Assembly: GCA_026026165.1 (NCBI GenBank)
Contig: JAPEUD010000010.1
Span: 62,001-126,000 of the forward strand
Direction of reading: 5' to 3'
Source: Sarea resinae
Lineage: Eukaryota
Length of the DNA stretch: 64,000 nt
Below are positions 11,373 through 37,900 of the stretch, piece after piece. The notes below the pieces were generated by a model. It had not been told where the DNA came from. It saw only the letters and a program-made list of their open reading frames with translations, and did no database searches. The stretch's first letter is position 1; each line of letters begins with the position of its first letter. Made by a program: the position numbers and the translations under genes.

Positions 11373-12951
11373 ATGCCTCACTTTGTCATAAAGCCGTGGC
11401 GAGACGACTTCGAATTGCTCAAAGTGCGCTCACAATTCTACCCTCCAACCAATGCCGTAAACGACGAGCGACGCCATGCCGTCGATATGGTACAGCACTC
11501 CGAAATGCGCCTTAGGATCGCATGCAAGCTGACAGGTTCAGGTTGGAGCATGGAAGCTCCGGGGAAGTCTCCCTCACAAAGTGGAATCGACCGCTCTCCT
11601 AATTGATGCGATTCTCAATGATGAGAAGCTCGGCGCATCTGCATACTCCATCCGCTCGACCTATTCTACGGCTTTTTGTCGGTAGGGCAATATACAGTAG
11701 TTTCTCGAAGCACTTGCACTTACGCTGTCGCTTTAGATTTGTTACGGGGCTCGTGGACTCGGAGCAGAACAGCACGAGAAAAATACCCATGTGGGAGAAC
11801 GCCAAAAAGATCGGATTGCCCGTTTCGTTTGTTGACTTGCGCCATCAAGCCACCCACGAAGATCTTCCACCTCTGTTGGTCCTTCAGCAAGCTGCCAGAA
11901 GATCGGTCCAGTGGCTTTGGGACAGTTACTGGAAAGACCTTGAATATCGCATTGGGGCCTTGAATATCGATGACGCATTCGCGAATGGTGTGTCGAGCCT
12001 GCAGGAGCAGTTTCGTGAGATCCTGCGTCCATATCTAAAGAGCCGCCTTGAACGGATCAAGATGGGCAAGCCGATGGCCAAAGCAGCAGCAGAACTCGAC
12101 AGCGCTTCCGATGAGGCATGCCAGAAATGTGTCAAAATATGCAAAGATAAAGAACAGACCCTGATGATTCTAGCTGGAGTTTTACTCGAAACGAGATTTC
12201 TTGTTCCAGCCAACAGAAAGTAAGTGGTCATATGGACTTTTGCATCTGTTCAAGCCAGAAATTGACTTTTTATAGATTAGGTGCGAGTATGGATGGCATT
12301 TTCGTTATGTGGGAAGACCTCCTGAAAAGGCTGACTAACCACCAACACCGATTTCTCCGTATCTTGGTTGAGGAAATGACAATAAAGCTTGTCCAACCTT
12401 CGCAGCTGGATGTACAGTTTGACGCATACCGCCAGGCCGTCTACATGTGGGTCATCAGAATATTAAAGTCCGAAGAATGGGCCCTCAGAAGAAGGAGATA
12501 CTACCGAGATCAAAGCGGAGTCATCTCCACCTGCATCATGGGGCCGAATTTCTGGAGTCGGGATCTCGCCAGATCGCTAGTTGAAGCTGGTGATGAAGTG
12601 CTCAAGGAGCAATGGGATGAGCTGGTCGGAGTACCAATGAAGAAGCACGGTAGTTCTCGGAGGAGCTCTAGTGACGGTACGATTAGTTCGGAGATAGCCA
12701 GGGCGCGCGAGGAAGCAGATGAGCTCAATAGAGTTTTGGCAAACGCGCTGAATAGCGAAGCCTCTTCAGATGAGTCGGAAGATAGTGCCGACGCACGCGT
12801 GGGCGTGGAGCGTAACATCTCATATGGTCGGGGAACGAGCCTCTACCAGGATGAGATCGATGATCAGGATGAATCCGATATATCCCTTTCCGAGTATGGG
12901 TGGAGTAAGTGGAAGGGCCCTTGGGCTTCAAAGCCAATTGGTCTGTTATGA
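11373..12951 (+). CDS. LAS1: Las1-family HEPN endoribonuclease (pre-rRNA ITS2 processing)
   Basis: PW...F-Y N-terminus, AWKLRGSLPHKVESTALL, RFVTGLVD, IGLPVSFVDLRHQATH (HEPN RxxxxH), WLWDSYW, C-terminal W..KPIG. Three introns. Confidence 0.92.
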
Positions 12952-13224
12952 TAACGGTCCAGCGTCAGACGAGGATTCACGGCGAGTTGGCGTAAAGGCA
13001 GTCATCTTGAGCAGCTAGTTTTTAGATATGATTTCATCTTCTACAATTGCATGATATCCACGAAAGCACTGAACAGGAATGTAGAATTATCATCATGTCG
13101 TTGCTATAGTAGTGCACTACTCGAGAGCGACGAGTGCTGCATACTCAGCTCATGTGCTCGTGGTGAATATGACAGAGGGTATATCAGAATGAATAAGACG
13201 AACATATTTCAACGAAGGCTAGTC

Positions 13225-13236
13225 TGGCCTAGGCGG
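13225..13236 (+). promoter_or_regulatory. Pol III A-box-like element (TGGCCTAGGCGG)
   Basis: Fits TRGYnnAnnnGG and lies just upstream of the structured element. Confidence 0.45.
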
Positions 13237-13244
13237 TAGGGGTG

Positions 13245-13418
13245 AAAACGGAGATGAAATGTATCTTGGATACAGGGATCCTGGAAGCCCGGCCGACCTG
13301 ATAAATCCAGTGATAACAGCATCCCTTCAGCTACTGCCAAACAACTACGGCATTGAGAAAACCTGATCCCCAAGGTTTTCGTAGGATCACCCCGGCCAGG
13401 GTGATCTGAGTTTTTTTT
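13245..13418 (+). ncRNA. Putative structured box C/D-like ncRNA, probably Pol III-transcribed; family unassigned
   Basis: Terminal AAAAC/GTTTT stem closing GAGATGA (box C-like, 13251) and TCTGA (box D CTGA, 13406-13409). Five successive hairpins, two with perfect 8-bp stems. Followed by T8 and a downstream B box. Confidence 0.55.
13411..13418 (+). terminator. Oligo-T run (T8), candidate Pol III terminator
   Basis: TTTTTTTT directly after the last hairpin/box D. Confidence 0.45.
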
Positions 13419-13477
13419 AGGCTGCGGCAGCGCCTTGGGATGTTATGTACCTTTATTGCCTGTATGGGACGGCGGAC

Positions 13478-13487
13478 GTTCGAATCC
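13478..13487 (+). promoter_or_regulatory. Pol III B box (GTTCGAATCC), not within a tRNA fold
   Basis: Perfect B-box core 60 nt downstream of the T8 run. The flanks do not form a T-arm or cloverleaf. Confidence 0.55.
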
Positions 13488-13818
13488 AATACTCTACGAG
13501 TCTGTTTTTTTCTTCTGATTATTCTGATAATTGGGGTTTGGGGTGGTGAATGTCTGAGCATCCGTCGATATCTTGACGGACTGACCGATTGATACTGCGC
13601 AAGTGGTATCCCGAGGCTGCCCAACGAATTGCTTCAACACCGACCACTCCAGCGATAGACGTAATGACCGCCTTGATACAGGATATCCCATGTTAAAGTT
13701 ACGGAATCTCCAACCAGCAGCCACAGTCCAAGAACCCGCATGCTGCAGATTCGGCTGTTGATATCTACCCGTTCCCGACAGACCTGATCTCCGATCCCGA
13801 GAGGATCGAACGGCTGCC

Positions 13819-14688
13819 ATGAGTGCTCCACCGTCCATCAAGCCGCTCCCCTCCAACCCGCTTCAGCAGCAGCAGGCCGTGCAACGCACGCCGACAGCCG
13901 GGCTACGATACCCCTCAAACCGGAAGACCATCTATGACAGGAATCTCAATCGCAGTCGTGCCAGCGAGCTGAATCGCGCCAGCTTCGCGTATCTGTTCGG
14001 TGAGATGGTGAGCTATGCGCAGCGACGGGTGACGGGCATCCAGGATCTGGAAAAGAGGTATGTCTATTTCTGGTCTGCTCAGTTGTAACTCTGTCTTCGG
14101 TTGTCGTGTCAAAAGCATGGCCTATCCATGAGCGGGCGAGAGTGCCATTACTTCGCGGGAGAGCCGGACGGAGGGTCTCAATAGAGAGAGCCCCTTTATA
14201 TCATCGCACACATCCAACGTTACGATTGAAGCTAACACGACGGAACTCCCAGACTGAACGCACAGGGCTACCCCCTCGGCATCCGTCTCCTTGACCTTCT
14301 CCTTTACCGCGAACCCCCCCGCTCCGCTCATCGCCCCACCCGCATCCTTCCCCTCCTCCAATTCATAACCACAACCCTCTGGCGGCATCTCTTCGGCCGG
14401 CCTGCGGATGCCCTCGAACGCTCCAAAGATCACGAGGACGAATACATGATTTCCGACAACGACCCTCTCGTCAATCAATACATCAGCGTGCCCAAGGAGA
14501 TGAGCCAGTTGAATTGCGCGGCGTATGTGGCAGGGATTGTCGAGGGTGTGTGCGATGGGACGGGGTTTCCGGCCAGAGTAACAGCGCATGGAGTTGGCAC
14601 CGAGATGTGGCCCGGAAAAACCGTGTTTCTGATCAAGTTTGATATGGAGGTGTTGGAAAGGGAGGCGTTCCTGGAGAAGGGAAAGTGA
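13819..14688 (+). CDS. TRS31: TRAPP complex subunit Trs31 (TRAPPC5)
   Basis: SFAYLFGEMVSY, LEKR|LNAQGYPLGIRLLDLL, EYMISDNDPLVNQYISVPKEMSQLNCAAYVAGIVEG. Intron 14058-14252. Confidence 0.96.
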
Positions 14689-27219: not shown

Positions 27220-28488
27220 TATGAGCACGAAATGTGAGTTGGGACAGGGACGTTACACTATAGCTGTAAGATGAGTATGATTTAGCTTGTTGAAAGCGGG
27301 CAATACCAACGGATTCTTGAATGGTTGGGTGGCAGGAATTGGCGTTTTGATATTCGGCTGTTTAATGGCTTCAATTGACTGTTAGCAGAGCGCTGGAGGT
27401 CGGTGGTATGTATTTCGTCGCTTCATTTCCTATTCAAAACATGACAGCAGCAAGCACATCACTCCATTGAGTGAAATCGCGAAACTCGAAAAGTTTTTAT
27501 AATGCTCAAAAACCATGTCTCCTTCCAATTTGTATTGCAAGACATGCTGTCTCGCTTTCGACAACTTTTCGAGCTGGTGAAGTATGCCCAAGAGTAAGAT
27601 CTCGTCGAAGAATACCGTATGACTTTGAAATGCTAGTAGACACCGTGTGCTCTGGTACCCAAGTGAAATATAATGACCCTCACTCCGTCCGATTGGTTAC
27701 TCTGGCAGGTGATTGCCTCGATATGCTCAGGAGCAAGTCAGGCAGATGAGAATATTCGCTGAGGACCTCCTCGCACGATGCCGTCGTGTGCAGGTGTACG
27801 CCACTTCCCTGCATGGGCGAGAGGCTAGATTGCCAGCGAGTGGAGTAAGAAGGCCTGGCTTTGTGATGAAGGTAGGTTTGTTGGCTTTTGCAGTCTTATC
27901 TTTGGGGAGGGAAGGCGGGAGTGATAACTATCAGAATGCCATGGGTTGACCGGCGAAGGGACCAGGACCGAGCAAGAGTAAATACAGAAGAAAGGGATAG
28001 AGGTGAGAAGAGAGAAAGAGGAGCGAGGCTCGGGCATAATAGAGAAAAAAAAATCAATGGAGCTCGGGCCAAGTGGGCGGATATTGGGTATGACGATTAG
28101 GGGTCATTTGGGACATGTAAAGGTTAATAGATAGGGAAGGTCTGCGAAATCAGGCTGATATCAATCTCCAATCTCGATCTTGATCCTGGTTTAGTGGACT
28201 GGGGCGAAAAGCCACTCGCTTCTCAGACGATATGCATGCTGTGTGTATATGAGAGCATGGCGGATGATTAGTGCTCTCGACGCCTCAAGACCTCACGATG
28301 ATGGTATAGAGATCGTAGATTCCTCAAGCCTCGCGGGACCTAGATGACAGAAAGAGGAATGCCTAAGGTGGATGATCGAGTACTGTAGAACAATGAGAGA
28401 TGATGATTGACGACGACAAGGGTGGTGAGGGGAGGTGCAATTACGCCCGTATTAGATATCTACGTATTGCACCGGTTCGAGGCGGTGT

Positions 28489-31404: not shown

Positions 31405-31755
31405 GACTGTAGCTAGCAGAGGATAAAGAGAAGAGAGACGCGAGCTATTTATCCATAGCTATCCATCCATCCACAGATACCTTCTCTTGCTTTTATGAGC
31501 GAGGAACAAAAAAGAAGTAGGTTTCATATTGAGTTCCCCCCTGTCCCATCGTCACCACCTTGATCATGACCCCCAAGCGCCTGGATGGATTTGATGGGAC
31601 CGGAACGCCGCAAGTCGCTGTCCAAAGGCCCGGTGTAGATGAACGCCGTGAAAGCAGACACACACGACACACACACGAGAGACGTTAATCAGTGATTGTG
31701 ACACCCGTCCCACTTTCTTCTTACGCTGATTCACATTATGTTCATATATCACAAA

Positions 31756-34700
31756 TCATGCAGGCGTCCCGCACTTGGTACACAACAGCCTCTGACCCTG
31801 TCTCGTCATGCGCGCCCTAAAGCTGACACTGCCACATCGAACACAAGCGAGCTGTTCACCCTCAGTATCATCTTCCTCTAGACTCGAGCTCTCTTCAGAG
31901 CTCAAAGCGCTGACGGAAGAGACCTTTTTCACAATGGGGGGCCCAAGGAGATTCGGATCGCGAGATTGCGAATCACCGCGACTGCCATCGTTGAGGGCGG
32001 TGGTGGAGTCGTCGGCGTTTCGAAAACTTGTGACGGCGGCTTGGTCCATCCAATTGGCTTTGTTCCAGAAGAGGTAGGATTGCTCGCCTTGGAGCATGAG
32101 AGGATCGGGGGTACTGTCACGGCTTGGAGACACTGCGGTAGAGGTAGAAGCGCCGGTCGGGGTGTTGTTGGTAGTAGAGGTAGTGCCCTTGGCATCTGCG
32201 CTTGCATCGCCACGGATGCTCGGGGTCGAGGAATTGTTGTTGGCAGGAGAACTGACGTTGTTGACAACAGAGCCTTTCCGGGGAGTATTTGCAGCTTTGG
32301 GCGATGCCGTATTGAGAGACTTGCGGGGAGAGGCGCTGCGGCGGCGAGGATTGTTATGACTGTTACTCTTACTGTTAGTTTCTAGGCTGCCGTTGCTGAC
32401 AGAATTGCGCCACGAGAGTATTCGATCGGAAGGCTGCTGCAGTGATACAGAAGTGCGAGCCGATCTACCACTGTTCTTCGTGGCAATACTCGACGCTCTC
32501 CCCAGCATACCCGTGCCGATCTTCTTCGTAAGTCCGAAGCCCGTTTCCCAAGATTCGTGGCGTCTTTTTTGATAAGCACAGTCCTGTCGGAAAACTTTGA
32601 TCCAGCCAAGATAATCGGCTGTCACAATGATATTGCCGTCTGGATGCGCGGAACGAGCTATATACGTTGGAGTGAACTCTTCATGTTTCGGCGCCTTCAG
32701 AACTTCCGAGTGGCCGTTCTCGGTCGGGGCCTTCGATGACGGATTTGACTCCGTTCTGCTGATCAACATGACGGGTGGTGGATTGCAGAGATCGTATAAA
32801 GGATCACCCGAGTTACTGAGCAGCCTTTTGGTCGAAGTCGGAGCAAAGACAGCTGCAGTAGTAATGGCAGAGTGTGCCTCGAAGATTTCCACAGGATGTT
32901 TATCTTTCTTATCTGCTTCTGCGGGTCCAGTTGTCCAGATGTAGACCTTTCGATCCTCACTACCACATATGACATAGTGACCGTCATCGCTGAAGCTTGC
33001 ATGGATCTGACTACTTGTATTTTCATTGCCCCGGAATTTCACTTCCATAGCCTTGTCCCGTAGATTGTACAAGCGGACCCGTGAGTCGTTACTGGTGATA
33101 AGTAGCTTAACCTCTCCGTTTGGATCATCAGGAGGGTGATTGATCGCTTGGATACCGGTAATTTTGCTACCCTTTGCGTTTCGTCCATGTGAAGATCTAA
33201 CGTGAATTTGTGTGTGATATTTGAGCCCCTCGGTCTCGAAGAATAAGCAGAGACCGTTGAGGCATCCGGCAATGGCGGTTTTTCCATCAGGCGTAAATGA
33301 AACGGCCGTGATCAAGTCCGGGACGTGGTTCCAGAATGCGACACTTTTGTCAGGAATGCTCCATAAACGGAGCTTGGAGTCGAGAGAGCCTGCCAGGAAG
33401 AATCGGTCATCGCGTGGATGAAACTGGATGGCGGTGACAAAATCACTATGTCTAAAGCAACAAAGACACTCTGCTCTTGAGACGTGCCAAAGCCGCACAG
33501 TCTTGTCCATAGACGACGACAGGAGAAAATTGTTCTACTTCGATTAGCTTCGACTGCATCCCGACCCTCCCAGGAAGTGACTTACTTTGCTCCAGCTAAT
33601 ATCTAATACAGTCGAACTGTGACCTTCATAATTACGGATCGTCTTCTTCTTGAAAACAGGTGCATTCAATCGCACCCCTCGTTCACTAGCATCTAGCGTC
33701 GATGCATCTTCTTCTTTTTCGTGTTCCTCTCTCTCCTCAGGCGTTGATAAGACTGCCCAAACACGGACTATTTTATCTTGGCCACCGGCGGCAATGTATC
33801 TTCCATCCTTACTGAACTCTAGAGCCCAAGTGGCTCCCCCTGATTCCGTTGGGGAGAGTGGCTCACCGGGAGCTCCATGATGGCCGGAAGCAGGTCCATT
33901 ATGTAGCCCTTGAGCCAGAAAAAGACGGTTGAAGTCTTTCTCCTTCTTGTTGTGAGACCGAATCTTAATATATTTAGGAGGGGGTGGGAATCGAGGATGG
34001 TATGAAATGTTATCGATGGGTTGACAAAAGACATCGGCTTCCGTGCCTTCAATGCGGCTGTCTCCTTGCTCTGATTCGTCTTCGTTGTCTTCCGACGATT
34101 CCTTCTTCTTATTGGCTCTAAATCGGCTCAGAAACGAGACGCCCTTTCTATAAAAACGATACTGTCAGCCTGATCTCTCTATATTCGTTATTCCGCGACA
34201 CCGGACAGATTGCTTTCGTCTTCCCCGAACGTGCTCGATATCTTTCATATGGTGGAGAATCAATTGTGGGTTGCAAACTCACTTCTTCTCTTTTGGGACT
34301 GTGCCAGAGCTTTCCCCTCTGCTTAAGTCTGATGTAGGGTTAACGTCAGAAGACACAGCTCCAGTCTGTTGTGTGTCACTCGCTGACCCGCCTTCGGAGA
34401 CGCCCTGGCGAAGATGTGCAGGTATTAGATTCTCCGTATGGGTGCGCTTGAGGATATGCTACAGCGACGAAAGTCAGCGACAAGTGTAGTAAAAGCAGAC
34501 ATCAGAGCGCTCGGGCGCTCGGGCTCCGCGCATCATGCGCGTAGAGGAGTTACCTGGGACAGAGGGTCAATGGCTGATTGAGAAGCACTCTCCTCGCTAT
34601 TGGGCTGCAAAGATTGATTGGGCGAATTGGCGTCTCTGCTAGATAAATTCCGAAGGAACTTATTCGGGGCGCTCTTGGCGATTGAAGATTGTTTTCCTGC

Positions 34701-34948: not shown

Positions 34949-37900
34949 GGTTCAATGGTTCACGATGGATTCATCCGAAATCGCCGAAATGGCTGAGATG
35001 AGACGAGAAATGCGAGGCCGAGGTAGAATCGATATTGACCAGATTGGGAAGTTGGCGAAGCAATTCATATCAGTAGCTGACGTAAGTGGGTAAGCAAGTA
35101 CCGTTACTCTAGAAAGGTCGAGGGGTATGTCTGAACGCGGGAGGCTTCTGAACCGAACCGGCTATGTGGTGGGATGGAATAGGGAATTGTGGCTGACGGC
35201 CGCGCTGTGGCTGGACTGACAGGATGCCGGCAATATATCCGTACTTCGTAGTACATGTACTCCAGATTGCGTCCTTTTCTTTGAAGATGCGAAGACGTGG
35301 AGAGGTGAATACTACCAACCTTGGAACGCAGCAGTGTCCATATCCATATCATACGGATGGCCATTACAATTCGATACATCCTCACGTGATGATTAAATGA
35401 TAAGGATCCCAGCTCAACAGATGAAGTTGATGGGAGCTGGAGCTGGAGCTGGAGGTCCGTACTCGTGGAGAATTGCCATGTTGGGCACAACAGAACATAC
35501 TAGGTAGCCCTGGTTGTCTGTCTCCTTGATAAGATATCGCCGTCCTACTCCGATCTCTCATCTCCCATCGCCCATTACCTTAGCAGTGTATCATCACCTT
35601 TCGATATCCTCATACTACTATGAGGATATGTTTCTTGGCATCAAAGCCATTCAGCCCTTAAAGGGGCAAACTCCTGCCTCTCAAACCACGAACCATTAAT
35701 TGGATCAGTACATAAGGTAGCCCCGTGCCGTCCCATACCCGACAACAACCTAAGGTAGCCTGGTAAGGCATCCGTATCTAGCCTCGTTCAGCCACCACCA
35801 CCCCTGCGCATCGTCAGAGTCTCAGGCCATCTTTTTTGCTCCCATGCCATCCCACCGGCCAGAGCAGATCGTTCTCTCGATCGCCTTCTACGCCCTTTCC
35901 GCCCTTCTTTTCCTTTAACGGCATCAGCATCTCAAGCCATCATCAATCTATGCCGATTCCGATGTTCGCCTATGTACTCTATGGAACCTACTGCAGTACT
36001 CCGGAGTACTTTGCACATGTCAGTCAAGCACCCCTAAGGCTAAGATCTGACCGAAACTGATGCGGCGACGCCGCAACGACGGCGACGACGACGATACCAC
36101 GTTTCGTGACACTGGTATGGTATGGTATGGTACCTGTCCTCTTCCTATCTAGCCAAGCGTCCGTCCCCAAGTATTCGGAATTCCCCTCCATGGTCACAGA
36201 TCCGGGAACCCAAAATGAGAGAGAGTTTTGCCTGAATATCGTGCACGCTCTGGTCTGAGGCAAAGCACAAGCTAGATGTCGTTGTGGTCTCCGCAGTAGT
36301 AGCCGTAGATGGATGCTGATCTGCAGACATACGCCGGTCGTGATTGAGTCAATGCAGAGTCCCAAATTCATGGAACAAGCCCAACCCTCCGGCACTTAGG
36401 AACATAGAGCTCCTTTAGTCCAAGCACCCTTACGATGATCTCCTTGGGTCTATCCATCAGTAAATGAACAGCAGGCTGTCCCACTATACACGGTCCCTGG
36501 CCATCAAAGGCCGTCCACAAAAGTTGGCTCATCAAAGACGCACTACAAGCCAATAGACGTTTACAACAGCATCGAGCCCCTTTCCTGACGGAACAAGGCC
36601 GAGGCTCCTCTTGAAGTCCCCATTCCTAGACATCAGCTAGATTTCCAGCATCACCAATGGATCAATACTATTTCTCCAGTTGGTATATCTCTTTACCCCC
36701 TTTTGGGAACAACAATAGGGCGCTCAACGCTTGCCATATGCAAGCCCCCAACTCCAGCCGTGCAGAGCGGCCAAAAAGTAAAAATCAAAAAAGAAACGCC
36801 GATGCTCCCAAAACCCCGTGTCAATGGCAGAAGCAAGGAGGAGAAGAAAAGCAAAATGGAGCCCTAGTGGATAGCCAGTCGATCAAACGTTTACTACGTA
36901 CTCAGAGAGAGCTCCTCCGCAGCTGGATCAGCTTAATTAGCTGGCAGGCTGCTCTTGCTCCAATAACATCACTCGTAGAGTAGAAAATAAAAAAAAAGCA
37001 AAGAAAAAAAAAGAGAAAAGAATGGGAAACGAAGATCAATGCCTTAAGGCGGATCATTGCGCGATTTTAGTTGCTGTCCATTATTTACAGCTACACTCTC
37101 ACTCCCCTTACCCACAAGGTGGCAAAACAATGAGACGCCGCCCTTGGAGATAGGTGGGAAGATGGTGGGAAGGCACAAATGAACGTTTTACCGTAATCCA
37201 TGTGTTATCGTCTGTATCCTACAGCAATTAGCTCAGCTGCTCCAAACAAGAGTATCAAATGCCCAGACCTCAGTCACTGCTGTCTAGAGTACTTGTGTTC
37301 ATACTTGGCATTACAGATCGAAAGCCTCTCATCCACTGATACTTCATACATACGACGGTACTTACAGTGCCTCTCATCACCAGCCGGGTCGTTATTCGTC
37401 AGAGAAAAACACCAACCGCGTGACCTCCGCCCACCAGAACTTTCAGTCCAGGTCTCTGACCGATGGCATACCTACCAGGTAGGTAGTTGGCACCCATCCG
37501 GTTGGTCAATTCTCATAATTAGATTCTGCAGGACGCACGCGACGACGAGCGAGCAAAGGAGCGGAAGGAAAATGACATACTCTGACCACCCCCGACCCCT
37601 CCCCTCGCCTCCATTATTCTCAAACGTCCCAAGCTCACGAAGTCGGAAACAAATCCGCCCTCTGGCCCATCCCGGGCCCCCTAGTCGCCTCCATTGTTGT
37701 TTGCGACGGTAGGCCTAAAGTACACCGTTCAGGTAGGTGCGCCAAGGTAGGCAAGGTAGGGAGGTAAGGCTTCCGGGGTCGGGCCAGTAGCGGCCCCCCG
37801 GTGCACATCATCACCGCGGGACCTGAAGAAGAAAATCAGGCGAGGACCGATTCATCCAATGTGAAGTGTATCAGCTTATTACTCGTACGTATGGTATCGA

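What the first reader, a model, noticed from the sequence alone, without database searches (positions are those of the whole stretch)
13210..13511. Candidate Pol III-transcribed orphan box C/D-like RNA between LAS1 and TRS31
Seen in the sequence, in order: A-box-like TGGCCTAGGCGG (13225); AAAAC-GGA-GATGA (13245-13257), which can pair with TCTGA-GTTTT (13405-13414) as a kink-turn (3-nt bulge, tandem G.A pairs, U.U, G-C, A-U); hairpins TGTATC/GATACA (13260-74), GGGAT..CTGGA/TCCAG..ATCCC (13275-13325), TGCC/GGCA (13335-52), GAAAACCT/AGGTTTTC (13357-80) and GATCACCC/GGGTGATC (13385-13406); internal CTGA (13298) and GTGATAA (13310) as possible D'/C' boxes; a T8 run; and a perfect B box GTTCGAATCC 60 nt downstream. 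Established: an internal A box with an extragenic downstream B box is the S. cerevisiae SNR6 (U6) layout, and SNR52 is a Pol III box C/D snoRNA. Inference: this is a ~170-200 nt structured ncRNA. From memory it does not resemble U1-U6, U3, U14, snR52, snR190, SRP, RNase P/MRP or a TPP riboswitch, so it may be an uncharacterised fungal RNA.
Basis: partly seen in the sequence, partly recalled or inferred. Interest (0 to 1): 0.8.

Follow-up and report, generated by a model that had tools for sequence, protein, structure and literature searches.

The report
Multicopy Pol III-type small RNA gene
A stretch of about 205 bases between two fungal genes looks like one copy of a repeated small-RNA gene with its own promoter and stop signal, but the proposal that it is a box C/D RNA is doubtful.

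Summary
Taken singly they are weak. A-box and B-box consensus matches occur at chance frequency in the window, and a bare C/D kink-turn pattern is found 2 times against 2.4 in shuffles.

The new evidence comes from contigs of the probable source genome. 13202-13416 is a dispersed multicopy unit. Several single-copy-depth paralogue contigs align at about 90% and break at 13202-13213 and at 13416, inside the T8 run. Their upstream flanks keep a TATA-like box, their downstream flanks are unrelated, and no indel length is a multiple of three.

Only the + strand folds better than shuffles: z -2.33 and -3.10 against -0.17. No Rfam family matches.

I read it as a TATA-promoted, oligo-T-terminated, Pol III-type structured RNA gene of about 205 nt from an undescribed family.

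The box C/D reading is weak. The minimum-energy fold buries the C, D' and C' boxes in a long rod, forcing the kink-turn costs 18 kcal/mol, and no rRNA guide complementarity exceeds shuffles. The downstream B box lies outside the repeated unit and remains untested. Expression and conservation in other species could not be tested.

The parts
13180..13195 (+). Upstream promoter motif: TATAT (13180-84), then ATGAATA (13189-95)
   Evidence: Sequence. It is the only TATA[AT] in 13101-13260. The 30-nt upstream loose ends of three paralogue contigs each hold TATAA followed 2-6 nt later by ATGA(A/G) (compared by eye). One of them matches 13171-13200 at 21 of 30 positions with a one-base offset.
13202..13213 (+). 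Start of high paralogue similarity; inferred transcription start zone (about 25-30 nt after the TATA)
   Evidence: tables 7 and 8: alignments of records 3, 4 and 5 begin at 13202, 13207 and 13213. The start site itself is inferred, not shown.
13216..13230 (+). Predicted 5' hairpin AGGCUA/UGGCCU
   Evidence: Minimum-energy folds.
13225..13236 (+). A-box-like TGGCCTAGGCGG
   Evidence: It has 2 mismatches to TRGCNNAGTGG. Such matches occur at chance frequency in the window.
13232..13338 (+). Predicted long imperfect hairpin ('rod', 34 bp; tip hairpin 13281-84/13289-92)
   Evidence: pair probabilities 0.94-0.96; z -3.10, 1 of 200 shuffles as stable; proximal duplex -21.6 kcal/mol (11 of 500 shuffles as good), distal part z -1.97. 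T13282C, seen in 5 paralogue contigs, changes U.G to C-G with G13291.
13245..13257 (+).
   Evidence: Pattern statistics. In the minimum-energy fold GAUG pairs with CAUC at 13320-23.
13298..13316 (+). D'-like CTGA (13298-301) and C'-like GTGATAA (13310-16)
   Evidence: Both are base-paired in the free fold and in the C/D-constrained fold.
13288..13361 (+). Most repeated core of the family (3' arm of the rod plus linker 13339-13356)
   Evidence: table 2: summed contig depth 4435.7 here, against about 337 in single-copy flanks.
13357..13380 (+). Hairpin GAAAACCU/AGGUUUUC; paralogues carry indels in it
   Evidence: probability 0.99. table 4 (insertions after 13358, 13366 and 13373).
13384..13407 (+). 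Terminal 9-bp hairpin GGAUCACCC/GGGUGAUCU, overlapping the D-box-like CTGA (13406-09)
   Evidence: probability 0.99; the two 3' hairpins give z -4.15, 0 of 300 shuffles as stable.
13411..13418 (+). T8 run: inferred Pol III terminator and end of the repeated unit
   Evidence: Paralogue alignments stop at 13416 and unrelated sequence follows (table 7). It is one of 4 T8+/A8+ runs in the window.
13477..13487 (+). B-box-like CGTTCGAATCC, outside the repeated unit
   Evidence: It is the only site with up to 3 mismatches to GGTTCGANNCC in 13200-13520. No function has been shown.
13505..13511 (+). T7 run 17 nt after the B-box-like site
   Evidence: There is no tRNA or other Rfam match in 13405-13525.

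Best explanation
Window 13180-13418 (+) is one member of a dispersed multicopy family of small structured-RNA genes of the RNA polymerase III type.

Inferred mechanism: TBP/TFIIIB is placed by the TATA-like box at 13180. Transcription starts near 13205-13213 and stops in the T8 run (13411-13418). The product is an RNA of about 205 nt with a 3' oligo-U tail, which is the usual binding site of the La protein.

Predicted fold: a small 5' hairpin, a 107-nt imperfect rod (13232-13338), a single-stranded linker and two strong 3' hairpins.

My committed reading is that this is a stable, protein-bound regulatory or structural Pol III RNA from a lineage-restricted family that has not been described. 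I do not read it as a canonical 2'-O-methylation guide.

Shown: the sequence features, the multicopy nature, the unit boundaries, the conserved upstream motif, the non-coding indel pattern and the strand-specific predicted stability. Inferred: the polymerase, the transcript ends, the fold and any function.
For: 1. Multicopy unit. In run X1, which holds 0.93 of the sampled words, flank depth is about 320-337. Records 3-6 are separate contigs at depth 315-388. They align to 13202-13303, 13207-13335, 13213-13335 and 13305-13416 with 10-13 other letters each. Depth at listed positions is 1450-2388 (about 4-7 copies), and the bin 13288-13361 sums to 4435.7.
2. Unit ends. Similarity starts at 13202-13213 and ends at 13416 inside the T8 run. 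The two downstream loose ends agree at only 0.63, which for two sequences means about a quarter of positions are identical.
3. Promoter. The three upstream loose ends shown keep TATAA plus ATGA(A/G), while the spacer around them diverges. One matches 21 of 30 positions (compared by eye). Keeping a motif inside diverged flanks fits selection on a promoter.
4. Not coding. Insertions are 1, 2, 4, 8, 1, 1, 1, 2 and 4 nt long. The longest frame across the unit has no protein relatives.
5. Structure on one strand only. The + strand gives z -2.33, the rod -3.10 and the 3' hairpins -4.15. The - strand gives -0.17.
6. T13282C in 5 contigs keeps the tip-hairpin pair with G13291. The indels fall in two predicted hairpins.
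7. It is not a MITE: there are no terminal inverted repeats.
8. Precedents. SNR6 has a TATA at -30 and a long T-run terminator (passages). TATA-dependent Pol III hairpin genes with poly-T exist in Neurospora (passages). Yarrowia has a 13-copy Pol III RNA of unknown function, RUF70 (passages).
Against: - No RNA data. None of the 4 listed runs is on record as RNA, so no transcript has been shown.
- No sequence from another species could be examined, so there is no covariation test.
- Only 8 of the 34 records laid for X1 were printed, and 28 substitution rows were withheld. Paralogue support for the fold therefore rests on one compatible change. The other listed change, G13275T in 3 contigs, would break its predicted pair with C13298 unless compensated, and I could not see whether it is.
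- Summed depths overcount where short contigs overlap, so 13 copies is an upper estimate.
- The A-box-like site has 2 mismatches to the consensus, and such matches are at chance frequency.
- There is no internal B box.
- A short repeat that carries a promoter-like motif could also be a non-genic mobile or duplicated element.
- The fold z-scores are moderate.
Confidence: 0.55

Rival explanations
1. A Pol III-transcribed orphan box C/D RNA: the ends (AAAAC/GUUUU, GGA bulge, GAUGA with CUGA) form a kink-turn that binds Snu13 and the C/D core proteins, the 5' leader carrying the A box is removed, and TFIIIC uses the downstream B box as in SNR6.
For: The kink-turn geometry is exact in the sequence. 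With a T5+ run within 16 nt, the pattern is expected only 0.027 times per shuffled window. With 85 T5+ runs in the window, that is roughly 3 in 10,000 per T run. CGTTCGAATCC at 13477 is the only B-box-like site in 13200-13520. The SNR6 layout (TATA at -30, box B beyond the terminator) is established (passages). snR52 is a known Pol III RNA with a promoter-bearing leader (passage).
Against: - The C box is GAGATGA, with A where the consensus has U, and C' is GTGATAA.
- The free fold pairs C, D' and C' in the rod with probability about 0.95. The constrained C/D fold is -52.6 against -70.7 kcal/mol, and the terminal stem alone is worth only -2.1 kcal/mol.
- The proximal rod duplex that competes with the kink-turn is itself better than 489 of 500 shuffles.
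- The regions before D' and D show no rRNA complementarity above background. The best score is 10.0, and 28 of 30 shuffled guides reach 10 or more. The rDNA used came from other eukaryotes.
- The B box is outside the repeated unit.
- No Rfam snoRNA family matches.
Confidence: 0.17
2. A Pol III-made hairpin precursor of small RNAs, like the Neurospora milR-1 type microRNA-like RNAs: the 107-nt rod is diced, and one arm gives a 19-25 nt RNA loaded into Argonaute.
For: The rod has 34 bp with bulges and z -3.10. In Neurospora, a member of the same phylum, the major milRNAs are Pol III products from stem-loop transcripts with TATA-like elements and poly-T, and milR-1 lacks A and B boxes (passages). 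The most repeated part of the family is the 3' arm of the rod.
Against: No small-RNA data exist. The two strong 3' hairpins and the 5' hairpin are not needed for such a precursor. According to the same paper, milR loci mostly lie in regions without repetitive elements, whereas this is a family of several copies.
Confidence: 0.1
3. A short non-genic repeat (a SINE-like or other mobile-element remnant, or a duplicated promoter module) that happens to sit between LAS1 and TRS31 and has no RNA function of its own.
For: There are several copies at about 90% identity with sharp ends. No homologue was found in any collection I could search.
Against: - There are no terminal inverted repeats.
- The unit ends in a T run rather than an A-rich or LINE-type tail on the strand that carries the A-box-like site.
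- There is no internal B box.
- The upstream flanks are homologous and keep a TATA motif, so the unit is not flanked by unrelated DNA on that side as a retroposed copy would be.
- Folding stability is strand-specific.
Confidence: 0.15
4. Chance motifs in the LAS1 3' UTR or the TRS31 promoter; no separate element is present.
For: Single motifs occur at chance frequency.
Against: The stretch is present in several other places of the same genome, with boundaries that match the predicted unit.
Confidence: 0.03

Closest known systems
Saccharomyces cerevisiae SNR6 (U6 snRNA gene)
   Same: TATA box about 30 bp before the start, an A-box-like site early in the transcribed part, a long T-run terminator, and a B-box-like site beyond the terminator (SNR6 layout from passages of PMC13475603).
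   Different: There is no sequence or structure match to U6 (no Rfam hit). The B-box-like site lies about 60 nt after the terminator and is outside the unit shared by the paralogues. The gene is multicopy.
S. cerevisiae SNR52 (Pol III box C/D snoRNA)
   Same: Possibly a Pol III RNA with C- and D-like boxes and a 5' leader that carries promoter elements (a passage in PMC2566860, says the sequence upstream of mature snR52 holds A and B elements).
   Different: No B box lies in the leader. The size is about 170-205 nt; snR52 is about 90 nt by my recollection, not from any call. No rRNA guide was found, and the boxes are buried in the predicted fold.
Neurospora crassa Pol III-transcribed milRNA genes (milR-1 type)
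   Same: Ascomycete intergenic gene, TATA-like element, poly-T, stem-loop transcript (passages of PMC3547838).
   Different: This is a family of several copies with extra 5' and 3' hairpins. No small-RNA evidence exists.
Yarrowia lipolytica RUF70
   Same: A lineage-specific, multicopy (13 copies) putative Pol III RNA of unknown function, recognised from T tracts and a shared fold (passages of PMC2566860).
   Different: RUF70 is about 70 nt and is fused downstream of tRNA-Trp genes. This unit stands alone with its own TATA, and the window holds no tRNA.
Dispersed 5S rRNA genes of filamentous ascomycetes
   Same: Short dispersed multicopy Pol III genes with an upstream TATA-like box (recalled, not from any call).
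   Different: There is no 5S match. Length and fold differ.

Membership tests
Box C/D snoRNA | C box RUGAUGA near the 5' end and D box CUGA near the 3' end | tested here: inconclusive
   D is CTGA at 13406-09. C is GAGATGA at 13251-57, which departs from the consensus at position 2 but keeps the GAUGA core.
Box C/D snoRNA | Terminal stem that brings C and D into a kink-turn | tested here: inconclusive
   AAAAC/GUUUU with a 3-nt bulge is present, but it is worth only -2.1 kcal/mol. It is out-competed in the ensemble (probability 0.0), and the constrained fold costs 18 kcal/mol. Protein-driven assembly could override this.
Box C/D snoRNA | Guide of 10 or more nt complementary to rRNA or snRNA, ending next to D or D' | tested here: not met
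   Tested against SSU, 5.8S and LSU rDNA of other eukaryotes (L044, L048, L056, L010, L018, L021). The best score is 10.0, and 28 of 30 shuffled guides score as high. The organism's own rRNA was not available. snRNAs were not tested.
Box C/D snoRNA | Binding of Snu13, Nop56, Nop58 and Nop1; nucleolar location | not testable with these tools
   Needs immunoprecipitation or localisation.
Pol III gene with SNR6-type promoter | TATA box about 30 bp upstream of the start | tested here: met
   TATAT at 13180. TATAA is kept in the three paralogue flanks shown. The start site is inferred.
Pol III gene with SNR6-type promoter | Run of 5 or more T as terminator at the RNA's end | tested here: met
   T8 at 13411-18. 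Paralogue similarity ends at 13416.
Pol III gene with SNR6-type promoter | Intragenic A box | tested here: inconclusive
   13225-35 has 2 mismatches to TRGCNNAGTGG. One-mismatch matches to the looser TRGCNNAGNGG are at chance frequency.
Pol III gene with SNR6-type promoter | Functional downstream B box bound by TFIIIC | tested here: inconclusive
   CGTTCGAATCC at 13477 matches 10 of 11. With 12 such sites per window on both strands, one within 100 nt has a chance of about 1%. It lies outside the shared unit, and only 30 nt of the paralogues' downstream DNA were shown.
Pol III gene with SNR6-type promoter | Pol III occupancy or Pol III-dependent transcript | not testable with these tools
   No RNA run was listed. 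There are no ChIP data.
tRNA-derived SINE | Internal A and B boxes, an A-rich or LINE-derived 3' tail, target-site duplications, unrelated flanks | tested here: not met
   There is no internal B box and no tRNA-like match. The unit ends in T8. The upstream flanks of the copies are homologous.
MITE | Terminal inverted repeats | tested here: not met
   No inverted repeat joins the two ends of 13202-13418.
Any Rfam 15 family (snRNAs, U3, SRP, RNase P/MRP, 5S, tRNA, snoRNAs, ribozymes) | Covariance-model score at or above the family's gathering threshold | tested here: not met
   0 matches at gathering over the window. At E up to 10 there are only three sub-threshold matches, all to unrelated families.
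Pol III milRNA precursor (Neurospora type) | Stem-loop transcript giving Argonaute-bound 19-25 nt RNAs | not testable with these tools
   A stem-loop is predicted. No small-RNA data exist.

The most novel reading that the evidence does not exclude
A previously undescribed, lineage-restricted family of Pol III-transcribed RNAs of about 205 nt in an ascomycete. Each gene would have a TATA box, and at least this copy an extragenic B box. The RNA would use a terminal C/D-type kink-turn as a stability module while its conserved rod and linker carry a regulatory function unrelated to rRNA methylation, making it a fungal counterpart of the fast-evolving Pol III regulatory RNAs of animals.
Probability: 0.15. 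Interest if true: 0.7.

Novelty: new member of a known kind. Interest (0 to 1): 0.5.

Why it matters
Few Pol III transcripts beyond tRNA, 5S, U6, SRP and RNase P RNAs are known in filamentous fungi. A multicopy, promoter-bearing family with no Rfam relative would add a new RNA class to fungal annotation. It would also offer a natural TATA/T-run Pol III cassette, of the kind used for guide-RNA expression. Depending on which fold holds, it would give either a rare Pol III box C/D RNA or a repeated source of hairpin-derived small RNAs. At present it is a well-delimited candidate, not a demonstrated RNA.

Tried and rejected
- Own genome: none is held, so the paralogues could not be fetched.
- Sequencing runs: no RNA holder was listed. 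Runs X3 and X4 (other organisms of the same study) covered only part of the TRS31 coding region at 80% likeness or more and nothing over the RNA. This is not evidence of absence.
- Metagenome scan with a 19-letter core word: all 6 loci were chance matches, 5 of them in one bacterial gene. The viral collection gave 0.
- Earlier findings of this scan: nothing by sequence, by genome or among relatives.
- Protein route to paralogues: the 77-aa stop-free frame on the - strand has no relatives at 42-135 aa or 30-41 aa.
- rRNA guide search: rDNA was taken from eukaryotic contamination in prokaryote assemblies. Two apparent 12-bp matches before D' (L022, L034) proved not to lie in eukaryotic rDNA. A recurrent 12-bp match of 13234-45 to the 18S end region, and a match of 13378-91 to the 18S 3' end, sit within the shuffle range.
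- tRNA relic around the B box: no ARAGORN call and no Rfam match.
- MITE, SINE and LTR readings: rejected on the unit's ends and flanks.
- Literature: 7 searches found no description of such a family. The 19-letter core word occurs in no held paper. The fungal motif survey PMC5640933 (passages only) lists an intronic atypical snoRNA that is unrelated in context.
Full report
**Setting.** The stretch lies in an 800-870 bp gap between two + strand genes. Upstream is a LAS1-like gene: Pfam Las1, E 5e-26, in the ORF at 11603-12223, with further ORFs open to 12951-13018. Downstream is the start of a TRAPP/TRS31-like gene: a weak TRAPP match of 17 bits, below the cut-off of 27, in 13819-14088. A neighbouring MFAP1 protein falls in clusters that are mostly Ascomycota. 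The window has 52% G+C and holds no tRNA gene.

**The observation.** Taken singly they carry little weight. A-box consensus matches number 93 against 90.5 expected. B-box matches number 12 against 16.25. A generic stem/bulge/GATGA...CTGA/stem pattern occurs 2 times against 2.4 in 200 shuffled windows; the other instance is at 31638-31823. Requiring a T5+ run within 16 nt of the D box leaves one hit against 0.027 per shuffled window (8 of 300 shuffles have one or more). With 85 T5+ runs in the window, that is about 3 in 10,000 per T run.

**What changed the picture.** No genome is held for this window, but one public DNA run (X1) holds 0.93 of the sampled words and is probably the source. When its contigs were laid on 12400-14600, the flanks were covered by exact contigs at depth 320-337. 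Over 13202-13416 several further contigs, each at single-copy depth (315-388), aligned with about 10% differences:
- 13202-13303 with 10 other letters;
- 13207-13335 with 13 other letters;
- 13213-13335 with 10 other letters and 14 gap letters;
- 13305-13416 with 12 other letters and 6 gap letters.

Depth at the listed variant positions is 1450-2388, which is about 4-7 genome equivalents. The bin 13288-13361 sums to 4435.7. Overlapping short contigs inflate that sum, so about 13 copies is an upper figure. Only 8 of the 34 X1 records and 2 of about 30 X1 substitution rows were printed.

The alignments break at 13202, 13207 and 13213 on the left and at 13416, inside the T8 run, on the right. Two downstream loose ends agree at 0.63, which for two sequences means roughly a quarter of positions identical, so they are unrelated.

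The three upstream loose ends are not unrelated to the window. Compared by eye, one matches 13171-13200 at 21 of 30 positions with a one-base offset. All three carry TATAA followed 2-6 nt later by ATGA(A/G), as the window does (TATAT at 13180, ATGAATA at 13189). The spacer around these motifs has diverged much more than the body.

The insertions seen in paralogues are 1, 2, 4, 8, 1, 1, 1, 2 and 4 nt long. None is a multiple of three. They fall in two of the hairpins (13260-74 and 13357-80). Substitution types show no excess of transitions (13 transitions, 17 transversions for X1).

Together these results define a unit: a TATA-like box, about 25-30 nt of spacer, about 205 nt of conserved body, then a T run. 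It is repeated at dispersed places, is non-coding, and is better conserved in the body than in its promoter spacer. That is the signature of a small-RNA gene family, not of neutral repeat DNA.

**Alternatives for the repeat.**
- There are no terminal inverted repeats, so it is not a MITE.
- There is no internal B box with up to 3 mismatches and no tRNA-like match. The unit has a T run where a SINE would carry an A-rich or LINE-type tail, and its upstream flanks are homologous. A tRNA-derived SINE is therefore unlikely.
- The only stop-free frame across the unit (77 aa on the - strand) has no protein relatives in two length classes.

**Identity.** Rfam 15 gives nothing at gathering thresholds over the whole window. 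It gives only sub-threshold matches to unrelated families when the region alone is searched with lax filters. So this is not a recognisable snRNA, U3, SRP, RNase P/MRP, 5S, tRNA, listed fungal snoRNA or ribozyme.

**Fold.** The + strand of 13210-13425 folds to -73.5 kcal/mol against -62.75 +/- 4.62 for shuffles (z -2.33, 4 of 200 as good). The - strand of 13211-13418 gives z -0.17 (85 of 200). This fits an RNA read from the + strand.

It has:
- a 5' hairpin at 13216-30;
- a 107-nt imperfect rod at 13232-13338, made of eight helices and 34 bp, with a tip hairpin at 13281-84/13289-92 and pair probabilities of 0.94-0.96;
- a linker at 13339-56;
- two hairpins at 13357-80 and 13384-13407, with probabilities of 0.99.

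The rod alone gives z -3.10 (1 of 200). Its distal part gives z -1.97 (10 of 300). Its proximal duplex is -21.6 kcal/mol (11 of 500 shuffles as good; 0 of 660 window segments as good a partner). The two 3' hairpins give z -4.15 (0 of 300).

In this fold GAUG of the C box pairs with CAUC (13320-23), D' CUG pairs with CAG (13273-75), and C' GAUA pairs with UAUC (13262-65). The terminal stem itself is worth -2.1 kcal/mol.

Paralogue variation gives one point for the tip hairpin. T13282C, seen in 5 contigs, turns U.G into C-G with G13291. G13275T, seen in 3 contigs, would break its partner in either model unless compensated, and I could not see whether it is.

**Guide test.** I had no fungal rRNA from this organism. 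I therefore fetched eukaryotic rDNA that contaminates prokaryote assemblies, using a standard primer word, and annotated four loci with Rfam. Complete SSU, 5.8S and LSU were found in L044. L048 holds a complete SSU and 5.8S with the 5' part of the LSU. L056 holds a complete SSU and 5.8S with 5' and 3' LSU parts, of which I used only the 3' LSU part. L010 holds SSU, 5.8S and a nearly complete LSU. L018 carries a perfect match to a fungus-specific primer but covers only part of the unit. The 28 nt before D' and before D show best ungapped scores of 10.0. For the D' region, 28 of 30 shuffled guides score 10 or more. Two tempting 12-bp matches directly before D' turned out not to lie in eukaryotic rDNA. 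So there is no evidence for a methylation guide. The caveat is that the targets were from other eukaryotes and that snRNAs were not tested.

**The B box.** CGTTCGAATCC at 13477 is the only B-box-like site in 13200-13520. By the window's own frequency, such a site within 100 nt has a chance of about 1%. It is followed 17 nt later by T7, a tRNA-gene-like spacing, but nothing there folds or scores as a tRNA. It lies outside the unit shared by the paralogues, of whose downstream DNA only 30 nt were shown. Whether it applies here is open.

**Most likely mechanism.** I infer the following. TFIIIB is placed through the TATA box. Transcription starts around 13205-13213 and terminates in T8. The RNA of about 205 nt, with its U tail, is bound by La and folds into the rod plus two 3' hairpins.

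I put 0.55 on this being a genuine Pol III-type structured RNA gene of an undescribed family that is not a canonical methylation guide. I put 0.10 on a hairpin precursor of microRNA-like RNAs. In Neurospora such RNAs are Pol III products from TATA-bearing, poly-T-ending stem-loop genes, and milR-1 lacks A and B boxes (passages of PMC3547838). I put 0.15 on a non-genic repeat and 0.03 on chance.

A precedent for a lineage-specific multicopy Pol III RNA of unknown function in an ascomycete is Yarrowia RUF70, with 13 copies (passages of PMC2566860).

**Novelty.** Seven literature searches and the Rfam scans found no description of such a family. Supplements were not opened. The claim is limited to what those searches cover. 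I rate it a new member of a known kind (a Pol III small RNA gene). Interest is moderate: the unit is well delimited by independent evidence, but no transcript, no orthologue and no covariation could be examined.

Noticed in passing
window 13285-13325 (- strand): Sub-threshold Rfam match to cyano_het_sRNA (RF02596): 26 bits against a gathering score of 35.7, E 0.0026-0.01. It shows 24 identical letters over the first 26 consensus positions (one mismatch, one gap). The model's hairpin is not kept (two non-standard pairs) and its 3' half is unmatched. It sits in the most repeated core of the family. Probably coincidence.
   Followed up: partly
window 13419-13511: A B-box-like site (13477-87) followed 17 nt later by T7 has the spacing of a tRNA gene's 3' end, but there is no tRNA fold or Rfam match. 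It could be a decayed tRNA gene of which only the B box survives, or a TFIIIC-only site.
   Followed up: partly
window 13372-13391: 13378-13391 can pair (13 of 14, with 2 G.U and 1 mismatch) with the 3'-terminal 18S segment GGTGAACCTGCGGA in 5 of the 6 rDNA sources that include 18S sequence. The score of 10 is within the shuffle range.
   Followed up: partly
window 31638-31823 (+): A second stem/bulge/GATGA...CTGA/stem pattern with no T run after it. This is consistent with the chance expectation of 2.4 per window.
   Followed up: no
window 13164-13199: Direct repeat TGAATATGAC / TGAATAAGAC, 26 nt apart, flanking the TATA-like box.
   Followed up: no
window 28045-28053, 36989-36997, 37004-37012: The only other T8+/A8+ runs in the window. 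They were not examined for similar units.
   Followed up: no
L007-L063 (genome contigs): Exact matches to a eukaryote-specific 18S primer word occur in at least 57 stretches of assemblies labelled as bacteria or archaea, which points to eukaryotic rDNA contamination. One example is L010, in a Nostoc assembly, with SSU and LSU carrying group I introns.
   Followed up: partly
window 13128 (run X1 contig end): A contig of X1 runs from 13128 into letters that look like a sequencing-adapter read-through (table 7). This would be an assembly artefact rather than biology; the adapter identification is from recall.
   Followed up: no
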